A DNA stretch of 34,046 bases from an uncultured Methanosarcinales archaeon (GCA_964398115.1 CAYNLP010000008.1:1-34046), one strand, 5' to 3'. Shown: positions 21,001-27,000, counted from the stretch's first letter. Made by a program: the numbers.

Positions 21001-24000
21001 AGTCAAAAGAGGAAATGTATTGAAACTAGACAACATCCCAGTTGGAACGAAAGTATTCAATATCGAAAAACAACCAGGCGACAAAGGAAAATTCGCAAGA
21101 AGCGGAGGAACAAGCGCAAAAGTCGTCGGAAAAGGCGACGGAGAAGTCATGGTACAACTACCCAGCAAACAAGTAAGAAGCTTCCACCCCGAATGCAAAG
21201 CCACAGTAGGCGTTGCAGCAGGAGGAGGAAGGACAGAAAAACCAATGATGAAAGCCGGAAACATGCACAAGAAGAGAAAAGCAAGAAACAAACTATATCC
21301 AAAAGTTTCCGGAGTGGCAATGAACAGTCTAAGCCACCCATTCGGTGGAACATCAAGCAGTCACAAAGGACGACCTACAATCGCCCCTAAGAACGCACCG
21401 CCTGGAAGAAAAGTTGGAAAGATCAGGCCTAAAAAGACAGGTCAAACCAAAGGCAGAAGCAAAAAGGAGAAAGATGAAAGCTAGGTGATACCAAAAATGG
21501 CAAAAGACGAATTCAAATATCGAGGAAAAACATTAGAAGAACTTCAAGATTTAAGCTTGAACGAACTAGCAAAACTATTACCTAGCAGACAAAGAAGAAA
21601 GATCAAGAGAGGATTCGACGACGACAAAAAAGCACTTATGAAAAAAGTCGAAAACAACGACACTGTCAAAACACATCAAAGAGACATGATAGTACTCCCC
21701 AACTGGGTTGGCAAAACTATAAAGGTTTACGACGGAGAAGAATTCCGACCAGTAACAATAGAACCCGCCCACATCGGACACTACTTGGGCGAACTAGTAC
21801 TAACAAGAGAAAAAGTCGAACACAGCGCACCAGGTGTCGGTGCGACAAGATCAAGCACAGCAATCGTTGCAAGAGCAAAGTAAAATGGGACAAAAATACA
21901 CATTTCAAGGAAGCGAGCAACACACGGCTAAAGCACTTGGCAAAAGCCTCCCTATCAGCACTAAGCACAGCATAGAAATCTGCAAAGCCATCAAAGGGAG
22001 ACACATCAACAACGCCAAGAAAATGCTAGAAAAAGCTGCTAAAGAAGAAGAACCCATAAGCTTCACACGCTTCACCGAAGGAGCAGGTCACAAACCAAAC
22101 ATAGGAATGGGTAAGTTCCCAGTCAAAGCCTGCAAAAACATACTACAAATAGTAGAAAGCGCAGAAGCAAACGCACAAAACCAAGGACTAAGCAGCGACC
22201 TGAAAATAATAAGTGCTGTGGCAAACGAAGGACCACAAAGCTTCCGATACGGCAGGCACAGAGGACGAAAAGAAAAAAGCACACACGTCGAAATAGTGGT
22301 CCGAGAAGTACAACCAGAAGAACCAGAAATCGAAGAAGTAGAAGAAAAAGAAACAGAATCAGAGGAAACCCAAGAAAAAGAAGAAAGCGAAGACAAAGAA
22401 GAAGAGGGAGAAGATAAAGAAATCCCTGCTAGGAGCACTATAGAAAACAAGACTAAAGATGAAATTAAAGAATATGCAAGTGAAGAATGGAATATTGAAC
22501 TATCAACGAATGATTTGAAGGATGAAATGATCGACCAGCTATTCGAGGAAATCGGTGATAACAAATGATCGAAAGAAAATTCATACAACAAAACATGATG
22601 CAACAAAGGATTAAAGAATTCGTCAGCAACCAGCTCAAACGAGCAGGTCTAAGCGACGTAGACTTCCAAAGAACACCTTTGGGAGAAAAAATAGTCATAT
22701 ACGCGTCCAGACCAGGACTAGTAGTAGGAAGAGGAGGAAGCAATATTGCACAACTAACACAAGACCTCAAAGAAGAATTCGACTTGGAAAACCCACAAGT
22801 AGAAATCGAAGAAGTAGAAGAACCAGACCTCGACCCTAAAATAATCGCAGAAACCGTAGCAAACAGCCTCGAAAGATTCGGACCAACAAGGTTCAAAGGA
22901 ATAGGATACAGAGCCTTAAACGACGCAATGGACGCAGGAGCTCGAGGAGTAGAAATAGTTATCAGCGGACGAGTACCAAGCAGTCGAGCAAGAACATGGA
23001 GATTCTACGCAGGATACCTCAAAAAAGCAGGTGAAACCAGCATATCAAAAGTAAAAGAAGGATTCCACCTAGCAGTTATCAAAGCAGGAAGCGTCGGAAT
23101 AAAAGTAAGAGTCATGCCACCCGACGTAAGACTACCAGACGACGTAGAAATCAAAGGCGAAGACATTGGAGTCGAAGAAGTAGAAGACGAAGACACCCAA
23201 GAAGAAATAGAAGAAGCAAAGAAAGAAGCAGAAGAAGTCAAAGAAGAAATAGAAAAAGTGGAAGAAAAAGAAGAACCGGAAGAAAGCGAAGAAAGTCAAG
23301 AAGATGAAGAAGAGAAAGACGTACCGGCTCGAAGCACAGTCAAAAACAAGACCAAAGACGAAGAAATTGAACTCACGTACCAGCTCAGTGAACGCNNNNN
23401 NNNNNAGAATACGCAGCAGATGAGTGGAACGTTGAACTCAGCACTAACGACTTGAAGGATGAAATGATTGACCAACTATTCGAAGAAATAGGTGAAAACG
23501 AATGAAATACGAACGTATAAAGGATATGTCCCAAGAAGAAAAAATGGAACAGATAAGAGAAGCAGAAATGGAACTCATCAAACTATACAGTCAAGTCAGT
23601 ACTGGGACACCGCCAGAAAACCCTGGCAAAATAAAAAACTTAAGGAGGACGATCGCCCGTATAAAGACGGCACTAAAAAATGAGTGAAGTATGCGGAAAG
23701 TGCGGATTACCTGAAGACCTTTGCGTCTGCGAAGATATCGCAAAGGAACAACAAACCATTACAGTAACAACAGAAAAACGAAAGTTCGGCAAAGACTACA
23801 CAGTGATTGAAGGCTTGAAAGAAAGCGAGATTGACATGAAAGATCTCGCAAAAAAACTGAAAACACAGTTCGCCTGCGGAGGCACTGTGAAAGAAGGAAA
23901 GATAGAACTTCAAAGAGACCACACAAAGGAAATCAAATCCGTACTTGTAGAAGAAGGCTTCCCACCTGAAAGCATACAGGTAAAATGAAACGGGAAGAAA

Positions 24001-27000
24001 TCATAGGTAAGACGATGAAAGTAGTAGATTCAAATAATCAGGACATAGTAGGCATCTGCGGAAAAGTCGTGGATGAAACTAGAAACACGTTTAAGATAAA
24101 AAACGACAATATAAAGACCATACTTAAAAAAGGCACTACATTCCGTATCGACGACGAAACAATAGAAGGAGACGAGATAATGATGAGACCTGAAGAAAGG
24201 GTGAAACTATGAGCAAAGTAGTACAAGAAGGATGGAAACCAGAAGAAACATGCGAAGATGACAAATGCCCATACCACGGCAGCCTGTCACTACGAGGAAG
24301 AACCTTCACCGGAAGAGTAACCGGAGACAGGATGAGAAAAACAATAACCGTCGAATGGGATACTAAAAAGAAATATCCAAAATACGAAAGATTTGCTAGA
24401 ACCACTGCAAGTATCAAAGCACACAATCCACCTTGTATAGACGCAGAAACAGGACAAACCGTGAAAGTAGCAGAAACCAGAAGGCTATCCAAAACTAAAA
24501 ACTTCGTAGTAGTAGAAATAATCGATGAAGATACAACAATAATTGAAAGCGAAGAACCAAGCGCAGTGACAGAAGAAAAAGAAGGGCCAGAAGAGAAAGA
24601 ACCGGAAGAAAGCGAAGACACAGAAGAAACAAAAGAAGATGAAGATGAGAAAGAAGTCCCGCCAAGAAGTTCGGTAGAAAGAATGACCAAAGACGAAATC
24701 AAACAATATGCTGACGACCACTGGAATGTTGAACTATCAACGAACGATTTAAAGGATGAAATGATTGACCAACTATTCGAAGAAATAGGTGATCAAGAAT
24801 GAAAGCCGTAAAAAGCAAGATTGCAAAAGGACTAAGCGTAGGAAGCACTATACCCACCGCCGATAACAGTGGAGCGAAAAAAGTAGAAATCATTAGCGTA
24901 AAAGGACAAAAAGGAGTTAAAGGAAGAAGCAGCAAAGCAGGCGTTGGAGACATGGTAATGGTAGCAGTAAAGAAAGGAAGGCCAGACATGAGAAGAAGAG
25001 TAGTACCAGCCGTTATAGTAAGACAGAAAAAGCCATACCGAAGACCAGACGGAACTCGTATAAAATTTGAAGACAACGCCGCAGTTGTACTAAAAGATGA
25101 ACAAGGAAATCCAAAAGGAACAATATTCAAAGGACCAATCGCCAGAGAAGCCTGCGAAAGGTGGCCTGGCGTTGCAAAAGTAGCAAAGATAATAGTGTGA
25201 TACAAAATGACTGAATTCAACAAAAGCTGGAAGTCAAGTAAGAAACCAAAAAAGCAGAGGAAGTATAGACAAAACGCTCCTAAACACATCCAAGGAAACT
25301 TTTTGAAAGCTCACCTCAGCGAAGAACTCAGAGAAAAATACGATAAAAGAAGTTTAAGATTGAGAAAAGGAGACATGGTAGAAATAATGAGAGGAGACTA
25401 TAAAGGTGAACAAGGAGAAGTAGAACTAATAGATACAGACGAACAAAAAGTATACATAAGCAATATAGAAGTTACGAGAAGAGACGGTTCAAAAAGTAAA
25501 CCACCAGTTAAACCATCCAACCTAAAAATTACAGAACTAAACAAAGACGATCCAAGAAGGATAGAAGAGGTCGATACAGAATGACAAGACATCACTTGAA
25601 GAGACTGCCCGCACCACAAACCTGGAGAGTAGGAAAGAAGAAAGAAACCTACGTCACCAGGCCAAAACCAGGAGCGCACAGCCTAGACCTCGGAATGAGC
25701 CTAGACACAGTTTCAAAATACGTCGGATTGACAGAAACCAAAGCAGAACTCAAAAACATACTACAAAATAAAAACTTACAAGTCGATGGCAAACAAAGAC
25801 ACGACGTTAAACTACCAGTAGGATTTATGGACGTCTTAAGCATTCCAGAAGATGACATATACTACAGAATCGTAATGAGCAGCAAAGGACTAGAAGCTCT
25901 CGAAATAAGTGAAGACGAAGCCAAGGTCAAACCAGTAAAAATCACTGGCAAAACCAAAATCAAAGGGGGAAAGACACAAATACAAACACTTGACGGTCGA
26001 AACATAACACTTGACGAAGACAAATACCAAGTAGGAGACACTTTACTAATACAAATACCAAGTCAAGAAATAGAAGAACACGTCAAACTTGAAAAAGGAA
26101 ACAAAATACTCCTATACAAAGGACGACACGCAGGAGAAATTGGAGAAGTCCAAGACATAGAAAGAGATAAGCTAACCTTCAAAAGCGGCGATGAAGCATT
26201 CGAAACAAGAAAAGAATACGCTTTCGTAATAGGAGAAGACGAACCAATAATCGAGTTATAAAAAAATGGCACAACAAAACCAGATGAAGGAAGTTCGAAT
26301 CGAAAAGGTCACGCTAAACATAGGAGCAGGAAACGACCAAGAAAAGCTAAACAGAGGAGTACAACTACTCGAACACATAACAGGGATTGAACCAGTAAAG
26401 ACATACGCAAAAGAAAGAGTCCCAAGCTGGGACATCAGACCCGGACTTCCAATAGGATGCAAGATAACACTCAGAGGAGAACAAGCAAGAGAACTACTAC
26501 CTAACCTGTTAGAAGCAAAAGACGATAAACTACCAGCTAGCAGTTTCGACGACCACGGAAACGTCAGCTTCGGAATACAAGAATACATTGACGTAGGCGA
26601 CGTAGAATACGACCCAGAAATAGGAATGATGGGATTCCAAGTATGCATAACATTAGAAAGGCCAGGTTACAGAGTTGAAGACAGAAAAGTGAATAGCAGT
26701 AAAGTAGCTAGCAAACACAAAGTAGATCAAGACGCAGCGATAGAATTCTTCGAAGAAGAATTCGACGTCGAGGTGGAATATTAACATGACACAATCAAAC
26801 TGGAAAAAAATGTTGAAACAACTGGAAGAAAAACCAGGAAAGATGGAAAAAGCACAGAAACACAACAAACCCAAAGACCGTAACAGTGGAGAAGACAAAT
26901 ACCACTGTAGAAGATGTGGTCGGACAGGAGGCCACATACACAAATACGGCCTTCACCTATGCAGGCAGTGCTTCAGAGAAATAGCGACAGAGATAGGATT

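What a model noticed while it worked through the whole genome (the two positions that open the first line are those of the whole stretch)
21885..24802. A 40-residue HeH/SAP-like module tags ribosomal proteins, RNA polymerase Rpo5 and ATP synthase B
Twelve copies, on eleven proteins, of one ~40-aa three-helix module (consensus [sequence left out]), joined by an acidic low-complexity linker, sit at the C-terminus of six ribosomal proteins (uL22 C8:21885-22568, uS3 C8:22565-23502 [tail cut by a 10-N gap], uS17 C8:24209-24802, eL31 C1:10541-11161, eL14 C2:179-658, eS6 C6:11177-11818), of A-type ATP synthase subunit B (C2:51742-53241) and of g00800 (C15:18046-18441), and at the N-terminus of RNA polymerase subunit Rpo5 (two tandem copies, C3:68935-69504), a membrane-anchored DsbA-like protein (C5:50036-50950) and membrane protein g00745 (C13:16307-17092). 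The module is no Pfam family, is confined to this genus among sampled relatives (and r [...]
Evidence so far: HMM of 5 tails finds 10 called proteins at E 2e-37..2e-16 (Rpo5 with two copies), the next best being uS3 at 0.003, whose tail is found in another frame behind the N gap at E 5e-20; alignment A1 69% mean identity, 10 invariant columns. Orthologues in Swiss-Prot lack the tails (eL31 206 vs 81 aa, eL14 159 vs 77, uS17 197 vs 109, eS6 213 vs 126, uL22 227 vs 156; call 20). Pfam: only sub-threshold SAP (E 0.012), Rho_N (0.033), HeH (0.11). AlphaFold2 of the module: pLDDT 90, helices 4-8, 12-23, 33-44; Foldseek finds nothing significant (best compact match SAP domain 1zrj, TM 0.56; call 43), but an all-against-48,161-chain structural alignment ranks first the N-terminal HeH domain of Rho (1a62 re [...]
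(Added by a program. Inside this text positions count along the whole contig: contig position 1 is position 1 of the stretch shown here. "Call 12" and the like, gene names such as g00115 and contig names such as C1 are that model's own, and its searches are not shown. The text may have been shortened before it was handed on; [...] marks where a part breaks off. The agent that wrote the report below was given it as the finding of a first reader that could run no searches.)

Follow-up and report, generated by a model that had tools for sequence, protein, structure and literature searches.

The report
Acidic HeH tag replacing lysine tails
A tiny archaeon hangs the same small, very acidic three-helix domain, of a kind that usually binds DNA or RNA, on its ribosome, RNA polymerase, ATP synthase and some membrane proteins, and two unrelated tiny bacteria do the same, in each case where their relatives carry lysine-rich tails.

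Summary
Twelve copies of a 42-residue module sit on eleven proteins of this 1.0-Mb genome. Three are in the window: uL22, uS3 and uS17.

The fold call also holds. AlphaFold gives pLDDT 90. The best structural matches are the Rho N-terminal bundle, the T4 endonuclease VII C-terminal domain and many SAP/LEM domains. Distant family members reach Pfam Rho_N.

Two claims need correcting:
- **Not genus-confined.** Near-identical copies sit on sigma-70 (three in tandem), uL22 and a PilB-type ATPase of two Patescibacteria (CPR) genomes.
- **Not a lone oddity.** The congener carries a second HeH type on uL22 and eS6.

New findings:
- Module-free relatives in both domains carry lysine-rich tails at the same termini.
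- All four carrier genomes have acid-shifted proteomes.
- The copies are under purifying selection.

Best reading (about 0.45): a salt-tolerant nucleic-acid tether that replaced polycationic tails. Rivals are protein docking, a solubility brush and a neutral passenger. Function is untested. I class it as a new variant of a known domain kind, with interest 0.7. The scan had not noted this module on other DNA.

The parts
21885..22568 (+). uL22 gene (227 aa from the ATG at 21885): core, acidic linker, module, stop
   Evidence: ORF. Pfam Ribosomal_L22 55.8 bits on residues 18-139.
22302..22427 (+). uL22 acidic linker, 42 aa, net charge -18
22428..22553 (+). HeH module copy on uL22 (42 aa)
   Evidence: jackhmmer E 1.1e-28. 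First row of A1. AF2 model of window:22416-22565 has pLDDT 90.4.
22565..23395 (+). uS3 gene up to the gap: KH_2 and S3_C core, acidic linker, module start (ARSTVKNKTKDE at 23327-23362). The 33 bases at 23363-23395 do not fit the module.
23396..23405 (.). 10-N scaffolding gap inside the uS3 module
   Evidence: A relative's contig in run X2 reads through this spot in frame.
23406..23505 (+). Rest of the uS3 module (EYAADEWNVELSTNDLKDEMIDQLFEEIGENE) and stop, in another frame because of the gap
   Evidence: jackhmmer E 1.2e-19..
24209..24802 (+). uS17 gene (197 aa): core, 43-aa acidic linker (net -17), module, stop
   Evidence: ORF. Pfam Ribosomal_S17 77.6 bits..
24662..24787 (+). HeH module copy on uS17
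   Evidence: jackhmmer E 3.5e-30. A1. Its 3' half is nearly identical in DNA to the uL22 and eL14 copies.

Best explanation
**What it is (well supported).** The module is a lineage-specific, strongly acidic branch of the helix-extended-helix (HeH) superfamily. That superfamily holds the Rho N-terminal bundle, SAP, LEM/HeH and many phage HeH domains.

The module is about 42 residues long, with net charge -6 to -11 in 9 of the 11 complete copies; the g00800 copy (-4) and the first Rpo5 copy (-3) are less acidic. It is joined by an acidic disordered linker of 5-75 residues to free termini of abundant cytoplasmic machines:
- solvent-side ribosomal proteins
- RNA polymerase subunit Rpo5
- A-type ATPase subunit B
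- the cytoplasmic tails of single-pass membrane proteins

**How it most likely works (inferred, not shown).** It is a salt-tolerant replacement for the lysine-rich tails that related small-genome archaea and bacteria carry at the same termini. Those tails presumably stick to polyanions by charge alone. In lineages whose cytoplasm has become salty and whose proteome has become acidic, charge-only binding is screened and lysine is selected against.

A small folded HeH domain could still make weak, sequence-independent contacts with RNA or DNA backbones. It would do so through the N-terminal ends of its two long helices. The only family-wide invariant side chains sit there: T-K at the start of helix 1 and K at the start of the last helix.

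Six or more such tags on flexible tethers per ribosome, two on RNA polymerase (three on the bacterial sigma-70), and tags on membrane proteins would keep these machines loosely attached to rRNA, mRNA or the nucleoid in a very small cell.

**How it spreads.** The module moves between termini by recombination, and was exchanged between a Woesearchaeal genus and a CPR bacterial clade. The direction is unresolved.
For: **Fold and family**
- AF2 gives pLDDT 90.4 with helices at 6-10, 14-25 and 35-48.
- The best structural matches of 48,161 chains are:
  - Rho RNA-binding domain N-terminus 1a62 (Z 7.3, rmsd 1.6, 46 aligned)
  - T4 endonuclease VII C-terminal domain 1e7d (Z 7.3)
  - SAP domains 2kw9, 2do1, 1h1j and 1jjr, and LEM domains 7ndy and 2odc (Z 4.3-5.0)
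- Distant members reach Pfam Rho_N (P0022, 28.6 bits against 24.9).
- Of 22 family members scanned against PHROGs, 17 match phrog_8608 and 13 match the endonuclease VII family phrog_3281, over the module only.
- The congener's second tail type hits Pfam HeH at 25.8-27.0 bits against a cut-off of 28.9.

**Replacement of basic tails**
- Woesearchaeal uL22: tails of 12-127 aa in 19 of 19 relatives outside the genus, with K+R above D+E in 15.
- uS3 and eS6 carry similar K/E-rich tails.
- AtpB: 14 of the 20 homologues of 480 aa or more end in Lys-rich runs. The closest homologues (81% identical) have no tail.
- CPR uL22: K+R above D+E in 17 of 21 module-free relatives.
- CPR sigma-70: 11 of 12 sampled relatives have an N-terminal region that begins with a Lys/Arg-rich low-complexity run. 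The region is 172-217 aa with 18-30% K+R. The carriers have three modules there.

**Acid proteomes**
- G000 has a median pI of 5.09, with 45% of 593 long frames below pI 5.
- Samples of G001, G041 and G042 have medians of 4.7-5.1. Eleven module-free relatives have medians of 5.4-9.4.
- A 90-95% similar relative lies in a run labelled hypersaline lake metagenome.

**Selection**
- dS is saturated in 26 of 36 copy pairs. Omega is 0.05-0.32 in the other 10.
- T, K, L and K are the only near-invariant columns across 66 family members.

**Interchangeable sites and types**
- The congener G001 has the module on uS4, eL14, a DsbA-like protein and others, but not on Rpo5, uS3 or uS17. It carries a second HeH type on uL22 and eS6.

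**Precedent**
- In Arabidopsis RHON1, an acidic stretch is followed by a C-terminal 40-aa Rho-N domain. That domain alone shifts 16S and 23S rRNA fragments (PMC3458557, passages read).
Against: - No binding was tested. A domain of net charge -6 to -11 on a polyanionic linker would be repelled by nucleic acid unless the cytoplasm is really high in salt, and that is inferred only from proteome pI.
- The acidic clade has lost the basic loop (D-R-R-K-K-K) of its nearest phage and bacterial relatives, reading S-T-N-D-L-K instead. This could mean loss of nucleic-acid binding.
- Several HeH folds bind proteins rather than nucleic acid: LEM-BAF 7ndy, the MANF and CDNF SAP domains with BiP (6h9u, 9i5y), and SLX4-MUS81 7bu5. 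All appear among the structural matches.
- Many of the relatives' tails are mixed K/E polyampholytes rather than polycations, and their own function is unknown. PMC9297842 says the CPR-specific regions are uncharacterised.
- Termini that tolerate disordered tails may simply be permissive sites, so shared position does not prove shared function.
- The structural Z scores are below the level the tool calls decisive.
- The pI comparison rests on 11-40 long frames per genome, and related genomes are not independent samples.
Confidence: 0.45

Rival explanations
1. **Protein docking tag.** The module binds itself or one shared protein partner, as LEM binds BAF or the MANF SAP domain binds BiP. Ribosomes, RNA polymerase, ATPases and tagged membrane proteins would then be gathered into one assembly, for example ribosomes and polymerase at the membrane.
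For: - Exposed residues are unusually conserved among paralogous copies (74% mean column identity).
- Several top fold matches are protein-binding HeH domains: 7ndy, 6h9u, 9i5y and 7bu5.
- Many carriers are membrane proteins with the tag on the cytoplasmic side.
- uL22, uL24 and eL31 lie at the tunnel exit that faces the membrane (placement recalled, not tested).
- Self-binding needs no partner, so it would survive transfer between domains.
Against: - No candidate partner was found.
- A partner other than self would have to exist in both an archaeon and a bacterium.
- A net charge of -6 to -11 disfavours self-association.
- This reading does not explain why the tag sits where relatives have lysine-rich tails.
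- It does not explain why a second, only distantly similar HeH type can take the same place.
Confidence: 0.2
2. **Halophilic solubility brush.** Linker plus module is a hyperacidic, well-hydrated appendage with no specific ligand. It keeps basic or aggregation-prone proteins soluble in a salty cytoplasm. This would resemble the extra acidic domain of halophilic ferredoxin (recalled, not read here).
For: - Tails add a net charge of -15 to -35 per ribosomal protein and turn weakly basic cores into strongly acidic proteins.
- The carriers are exactly the acid-proteome lineages.
- Some tails in the same genomes are acidic without any module: G001 uS3 and G000 uS4.
Against: - A mere brush needs no folded domain.
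- It would not need near-invariant lysines or omega of 0.05-0.32.
- AtpB (core net charge -46) and the DsbA-like protein need no extra charge.
- N-terminal tandem copies on Rpo5 and sigma-70 are hard to explain this way.
Confidence: 0.2
3. **Neutral or selfish passenger.** This is a small cassette that spreads among low-complexity, GAA-rich gene ends by recombination and is merely tolerated at permissive termini.
For: - The carrier set differs between two species of one genus.
- Three identical copies sit on uL22, uS17 and uL24, which share one 12,176-bp contig in another genome.
- The uL22 and eL14 copies are 93% identical in DNA. The homology tract begins exactly at K-E-I-P and ends at the stop codon.
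Against: - Strong purifying selection with saturated synonymous sites.
- Orthologous copies are kept on the same carrier across genomes: the g00800 group has 95/88 support, and sigma-70 repeat 2 has 96/91.
- It recurs on the same classes of machine in two domains of life.
Confidence: 0.1

Closest known systems
N-terminal helix bundle of transcription terminator Rho (Pfam Rho_N PF07498; PDB 1a62)
   Same: - Best structural match: Z 7.3, rmsd 1.6 over 46 residues.
- Same length and same helix / extended loop / helix layout.
- Distant members of the module family pass the Rho_N threshold.
   Different: - No OB-fold or ATPase follows, so none of the carriers is a Rho.
- The window's copies score at most 14.6 bits against a cut-off of 24.9.
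- The module is far more acidic.
Arabidopsis RHON1 (PMC3458557, passages read)
   Same: Same architecture: a strongly negatively charged stretch followed by a C-terminal 40-aa Rho-N domain. That domain alone binds 16S and 23S rRNA fragments in gel shifts.
   Different: - RHON1 is a plant chloroplast protein and a partner of RNase E.
- It has a single carrier, not a tag spread over many machines.
- No homology beyond the fold class was shown here.
SAP domains (SAF-A 1h1j, Ku70 1jjr, PIAS1 1v66, MKL1 2kw9)
   Same: - Fold matches at Z 4.3-5.0.
- Same conserved lysine at the start of the last helix.
- Sub-threshold Pfam SAP hit of 15.7 bits.
   Different: - SAP domains are eukaryotic and net basic, and several are documented DNA binders.
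- The Pfam threshold is not met.
LEM/HeH proteins of the inner nuclear membrane (emerin, LAP2, MAN1, yeast Heh1/Heh2)
   Same: - Two carriers here (the DsbA-like protein and g00745) have an N-terminal HeH domain followed by one membrane span. This is the layout that tethers chromatin to a membrane in eukaryotes (PMC3810338).
- Fold matches 7ndy and 2odc at Z 4.4.
   Different: - There is no nucleus, and I did not search for a BAF homologue.
- The outer domains are unrelated.
- The tethering function is untested.
Phage HeH domains (T4 endonuclease VII C-terminal domain 1e7d; PHROG 3281, 8608, 390)
   Same: - 1e7d ties for the best structural match (Z 7.3).
- PHROG profiles match the module region only.
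- The nearest sequence relatives outside the acidic clade are 50-130-aa proteins with the same motif but a basic loop.
   Different: - The acidic clade forms a separate, well-supported group (99/96).
- It sits on cellular housekeeping proteins.
- No copy was found in the viral contig collection.
Lysine- and alanine-rich tails of ribosomal proteins in CPR bacteria (for example uS19, PMC9297842)
   Same: Same positions (free termini of surface ribosomal proteins) and same lineages. I saw such tails on uL22, uS3, eS6, AtpB and sigma-70 of the module-free relatives.
   Different: - Those tails are disordered and basic, whereas the module is folded and acidic.
- The paper says their function is uncharacterised.

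Membership tests
HeH superfamily (Rho_N / SAP / LEM / HeH fold class) | Domain of about 35-45 residues: two main helices joined by an extended loop, often preceded by a short helix | tested here: met
   AF2 gives pLDDT 90.4 with helices at 6-10, 14-25 and 35-48. Rho_N, SAP and LEM domains dominate the top 25 of 48,161 chains. Z is at most 7.3, which the tool calls middling.
Pfam Rho_N (PF07498) | Score at or above the gathering threshold of 24.9 bits | tested here: not met
   The best score among the window genome's copies is 14.6 bits (g00745). Distant family members P0022 (28.6 bits) and P0045 (18.2 bits) link the family to Rho_N.
Pfam SAP (PF02037) | Score at or above 23.9 bits | tested here: not met
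   15.7 bits, E 0.012, on g00745 only.
Pfam HeH/LEM (PF12949) | Score at or above 28.9 bits | tested here: not met
   No hit for the window's type at E 0.1 or better. The congener's second tail type scores 25.8-27.0 bits, E 4e-6 to 9e-6.
HeH superfamily | Binds DNA or RNA (or, for LEM, the chromatin protein BAF) | not testable with these tools
   The tools have no nucleic-acid docking or assay.
Transcription terminator Rho | Rho_N followed by a cold-shock-like OB fold and a RecA-type ATPase | tested here: not met
   No such domains appear on any of the 11 carriers.
Ribosomal proteins uL22, uS3, uS17 (the window's carriers) | Pfam family above the gathering threshold, and a place in the conserved ribosomal operon | tested here: met
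   L22 scores 55.8 bits, KH_2 61.9 and S3_C 56.6, and S17 77.6. The gene order is uS19-uL22-uS3-uL29-...-uS17-uL14 (the neighbours are named by my reading).

The most novel reading that the evidence does not exclude
In two unrelated ultra-small lineages, Woesearchaeal DPANN archaea and Magasanikbacteria-type CPR bacteria, adaptation to a salty cytoplasm was met in the same way. The lysine-rich 'sticky' tails of the ribosome, the RNA polymerase (Rpo5 or sigma-70) and membrane-associated ATPases were swapped for one shared, horizontally exchanged, salt-proof HeH nucleic-acid-binding domain.

The cell's core machines would thus be tethered to RNA or the nucleoid, and through tagged membrane proteins to the membrane, by one common multivalent tag. 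This would be a prokaryotic counterpart of LEM/HeH chromatin-membrane tethering.
Probability: 0.3. Interest if true: 0.85.

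Novelty: new variant of a known kind. Interest (0 to 1): 0.7.

Why it matters
- **Tails of CPR and DPANN proteins.** Lysine-rich tails on ribosomal and other core proteins of these organisms are common but unexplained. 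Finding them swapped for a folded domain of a nucleic-acid-binding fold class, in two domains of life and only in acid-proteome lineages, turns that puzzle into a testable hypothesis about what the tails do and how they are kept working at high salt.
- **Gene transfer.** It is a clean case of a 42-residue domain, rather than a gene, passing between Archaea and Bacteria and landing on analogous machines (uL22 in both; Rpo5 and sigma-70).
- **A possible tool.** The module could serve as a small, highly soluble tag that works at high salt.
- **Annotation.** These tails are currently unannotated, and they break assemblies at repeated copies.

Tried and rejected
**Ruled out**
- Assembly artefact or recent duplication. 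Copies are 56-93% identical in DNA, synonymous sites are mostly saturated, and the architectures recur in other genomes.
- More than two copies on Rpo5. The frame stays open for 27 codons upstream of the ATG to the contig end, but those residues do not resemble the module. I read them as a translated tRNA 3' end. ARAGORN found no tRNA in the 287 bases left, so this is unconfirmed.

**Searches that found nothing**
- JGI metagenome contigs: 591 pattern matches, none confirmed.
- Viral contigs: 25 pattern matches, none confirmed.
The whole-genome searches were more useful.
- PDB by sequence: best E 0.077, nothing significant.
- ESM Atlas: best score 0.79, leads only. These were viral Rho_N, HeH/LEM and SAP clusters.
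- Earlier notes of this scan, by sequence and by words: nothing.

**Unresolved or not possible**
- Tree of 49 module copies. It has only 42 columns, 20 of 44 inner branches are unresolved, and the direction of transfer between domains cannot be read.
- Expression. No RNA holder was listed among the sequencing runs.
- The contigs of run X1 do not bridge the uS3 gap.

**Literature**
- Six full-text searches found no paper describing HeH, SAP or Rho_N tails on prokaryotic ribosomal proteins, Rpo5, sigma-70 or ATP synthase. One search was spoiled because 'Rho_N' was read as 'rhon'.
- Subscription journals are not covered, and I opened no supplements.

**Charge neutralisation**
- The tails overshoot, giving totals of -16 to -41, rather than balancing the cores.

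Full report
**1. Is it there?**

The window is the main ribosomal-protein operon of a 1.0-Mb, 67-contig genome. The names given to the closest homologues of its ATP synthase B subunit place it among the Woesearchaeota. Earlier notes of this scan say the same.

I translated the genome in six frames and ran an iterated profile search from one tail. It converged in two rounds on 11 frames with 12 module copies, and nothing else was included. Pfam confirms the carriers:
- uL22, uS3 and uS17, in the window
- eL31 and eS6
- A-type ATPase subunit B
- Rpo5, with two N-terminal copies
- a membrane-anchored DsbA-like protein
- two proteins with no family (g00745 and g00800)
- eL14, which is supported only by a sub-threshold KOW hit and by its relatives

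The 11 complete copies align without gaps over 42 columns, apart from a one-residue gap in two of them. Mean identity is 74% and 10 columns are invariant.

The uS3 copy is split by a 10-N gap. A contig from a 90-95% similar relative in a public run reads through that point in frame.

**2. Is it real biology?**

- The copies are 56-93% identical in DNA.
- Synonymous sites are saturated in 26 of 36 pairs. Where dS can be computed, dN/dS is 0.05-0.32.
- The uL22 and eL14 copies are almost identical in DNA, and so is the 3' half of the uS17 copy. The homology tract begins at K-E-I-P and ends at the stop codon. This shows local gene conversion on top of old divergence.

**3. What fold?**

An AlphaFold model built from 66 family members has pLDDT 90.4, with one short helix and two long ones.

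I ran a structural alignment against 48,161 chains without Foldseek. It ranks the N-terminus of the Rho RNA-binding domain first (1a62: Z 7.3, rmsd 1.6, 46 residues). The C-terminal domain of T4 endonuclease VII ties with it. SAP, LEM and FAN1/SLX4 SAP domains follow at Z 4.3-5.0. The tool warns that such Z values are middling.

Sequence evidence closes the gap:
- Of 86 proteins found among 1.84 billion representatives, distant ones pass or approach Pfam Rho_N.
- Most short members match phage HeH families in PHROGs over the module only.

The window's own copies stay below every Pfam threshold. No solved structure matches by sequence.

**4. Where else?**

Among 41 genomes of the same order, only G000 and its congener G001 carry the module. 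The representative search then turned up a bacterial sigma-70 with three N-terminal copies (171 bits), a bacterial-type uL22 with a C-terminal copy, and a PspC protein.

A scan of species genomes led to a genome titled Candidatus Magasanikbacteria. In it the module sits at three places:
- on uL22, inside a bacterial uL2-uS19-uL22-uS3-uL16 operon
- three times on sigma-70
- between the MshEN and T2SSE domains of a PilB-type ATPase

Of 41 relatives of that bacterium, only it and one other carry the module. A third sigma-70 is labelled Candidatus Paceibacteria.

Other archaeal contigs add uL24 and uS4 as carriers. One of them holds three identical copies on uL22, uS17 and uL24.

The acidic copies from both domains form one well-supported group (99/96), separate from phage-like relatives with a basic loop. 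Inside that group the tree is unresolved, so the direction of transfer is open.

**5. The context that suggests a function**

At the termini where carriers have 'acidic linker plus module', module-free relatives have lysine-rich or K/E-rich low-complexity tails:

| Protein and lineage | What module-free relatives carry |
|---|---|
| Woesearchaeal uL22 | tails of 12-127 aa in 19 of 19; K+R above D+E in 15 |
| Woesearchaeal uS3, eS6 | similar K/E-rich tails |
| ATPase B | 14 of the 20 longest homologues end in Lys-rich runs |
| CPR uL22 | K+R above D+E in 17 of 21 |
| CPR sigma-70 | N-terminal region begins with a Lys/Arg-rich low-complexity run in 11 of 12 sampled (region 172-217 aa, 18-30% K+R) |
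| DsbA-like orthologues | among 10 homologue frames examined in 9 other genomes or loci, short N-termini rich in Lys, His or Arg before the membrane span in G002, G005, G009, G010, G018 and G022; a second G000 paralogue, G011 and both G013 copies have none. Weaker evidence, because the positive-inside rule predicts this anyway |

All four carrier genomes have acid-shifted proteomes. G000 has a median pI of 5.09 over 593 long frames. Samples of G001, G041 and G042 have medians of 4.7-5.1. Eleven module-free relatives have medians of 5.4-9.4. These samples are small, and related genomes are not independent.

A close relative occurs in a run labelled hypersaline lake metagenome.

**6. Sites and types are interchangeable**

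The congener G001 differs from G000 in several ways:
- It lacks the module on Rpo5, uS3 and uS17.
- It has the module on uS4 and on a small two-span membrane protein.
- It carries a second HeH type on uL22 and eS6. This type hits Pfam HeH at 25.8-27.0 bits, just under the cut-off of 28.9.

G000's uS4 has an acidic tail without a module. What is conserved, then, is 'some HeH domain on an acidic tether on the machine', not a particular site.

**7. Mechanism**

*Shown:* the fold class, the distribution, the replacement pattern, the purifying selection, and the two family-wide invariant lysines at the starts of the two long helices.

*Inferred:*
- The module binds RNA or DNA backbones weakly and without sequence preference.
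- It replaces charge-only lysine tails that would fail in a salty cytoplasm.
- Many tags per ribosome, two or three on the polymerase, and tags on membrane proteins give multivalent tethering.

The precedent is RHON1, in which an acidic stretch is followed by a 40-residue C-terminal Rho-N domain that binds rRNA on its own (PMC3458557).

*Against:* the strong negative charge, the loss of the basic loop seen in phage relatives, the fact that several HeH folds bind proteins, and the unknown function of the lysine tails themselves (PMC9297842).

*Rivals:* protein docking (0.2), a hyperacidic solubility brush (0.2) and a tolerated mobile cassette (0.1). A complex-prediction test of self-association could not be run.

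**8. Novelty**

The fold is known. The following did not turn up in six full-text searches:
- the acidic subfamily
- its spread over ribosome, polymerase, ATPases and membrane proteins
- its presence in both a DPANN archaeon and CPR bacteria
- its substitution for lysine-rich tails

I rate it a new variant of a known kind, with interest 0.7.

Noticed in passing
L020:1489-1602 (+) and L137:1060-1164 (-), both in congener G001: A second HeH tail type (W-T-V-P-E-I-K ... Y-T-S-N-D-L-K-A-D-L-L-E-K-A) sits on uL22 and eS6 of the congener, behind acidic linkers of about 95-110 aa. G000 has the first type at these positions. It scores 25.8-27.0 bits on Pfam HeH. A third uL22 with it (P0225) comes from another source.
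   Followed up: partly
Loci L033-L052, L087-L109 and L168-L179; proteins P0109-P0222: Lysine-rich or K/E-rich low-complexity tails are widespread in Woesearchaeales and in relatives of the CPR carrier. They occur on uL22, uS3, eS6, sometimes uS17, the C-terminus of ATPase subunit B, and the N-terminus of sigma-70. Their function is not known.
   Followed up: partly
L012:411-1328 (-) in G001; proteins P0006 and P0007: eL34 and eL14 are read as one protein (Pfam L34e plus KOW, 244-292 aa) in the congener and in another relative. In G000 a stop lies 18 bases before the eL14 start, so the two are not fused there. The G000 gene sits 178 bases from the contig start.
   Followed up: no
L014:1489-2682 (-) in G001; proteins P0097 and P0008: uS4 of the congener carries an extra folded-looking region of about 130 residues between the S4 domain and the module. 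Pfam gives it no family. It reminded me of an ASCH-type domain, which I did not test.
   Followed up: no
Window 22552, 23217-23395 and the contig ends C2:1-179 and C3:69504-69585: Public-run contigs break or run on into unlike sequence at module copies (loose ends). Two carrier genes lie at contig ends. Repeated modules probably fragment this assembly, so the copy number may be under-counted.
   Followed up: partly
Proteins P0020 and P0023 (243 and 276 aa): Two related proteins of unknown origin carry the acidic-type module at the C-terminus behind a conserved N-terminal domain with no family. PHROGs matches only the module. They could be viral, which would bear on how the module travels.
   Followed up: partly
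L008:3047-3439 (g00800) and its relatives P0013, P0103 and L016: A small protein is conserved with its module across at least three archaeal genomes (95/88 support in the module tree). It has a glycine/alanine-rich hydrophobic stretch, a coiled-coil-like basic region and the module. It is a possible membrane-associated adaptor.
   Followed up: no
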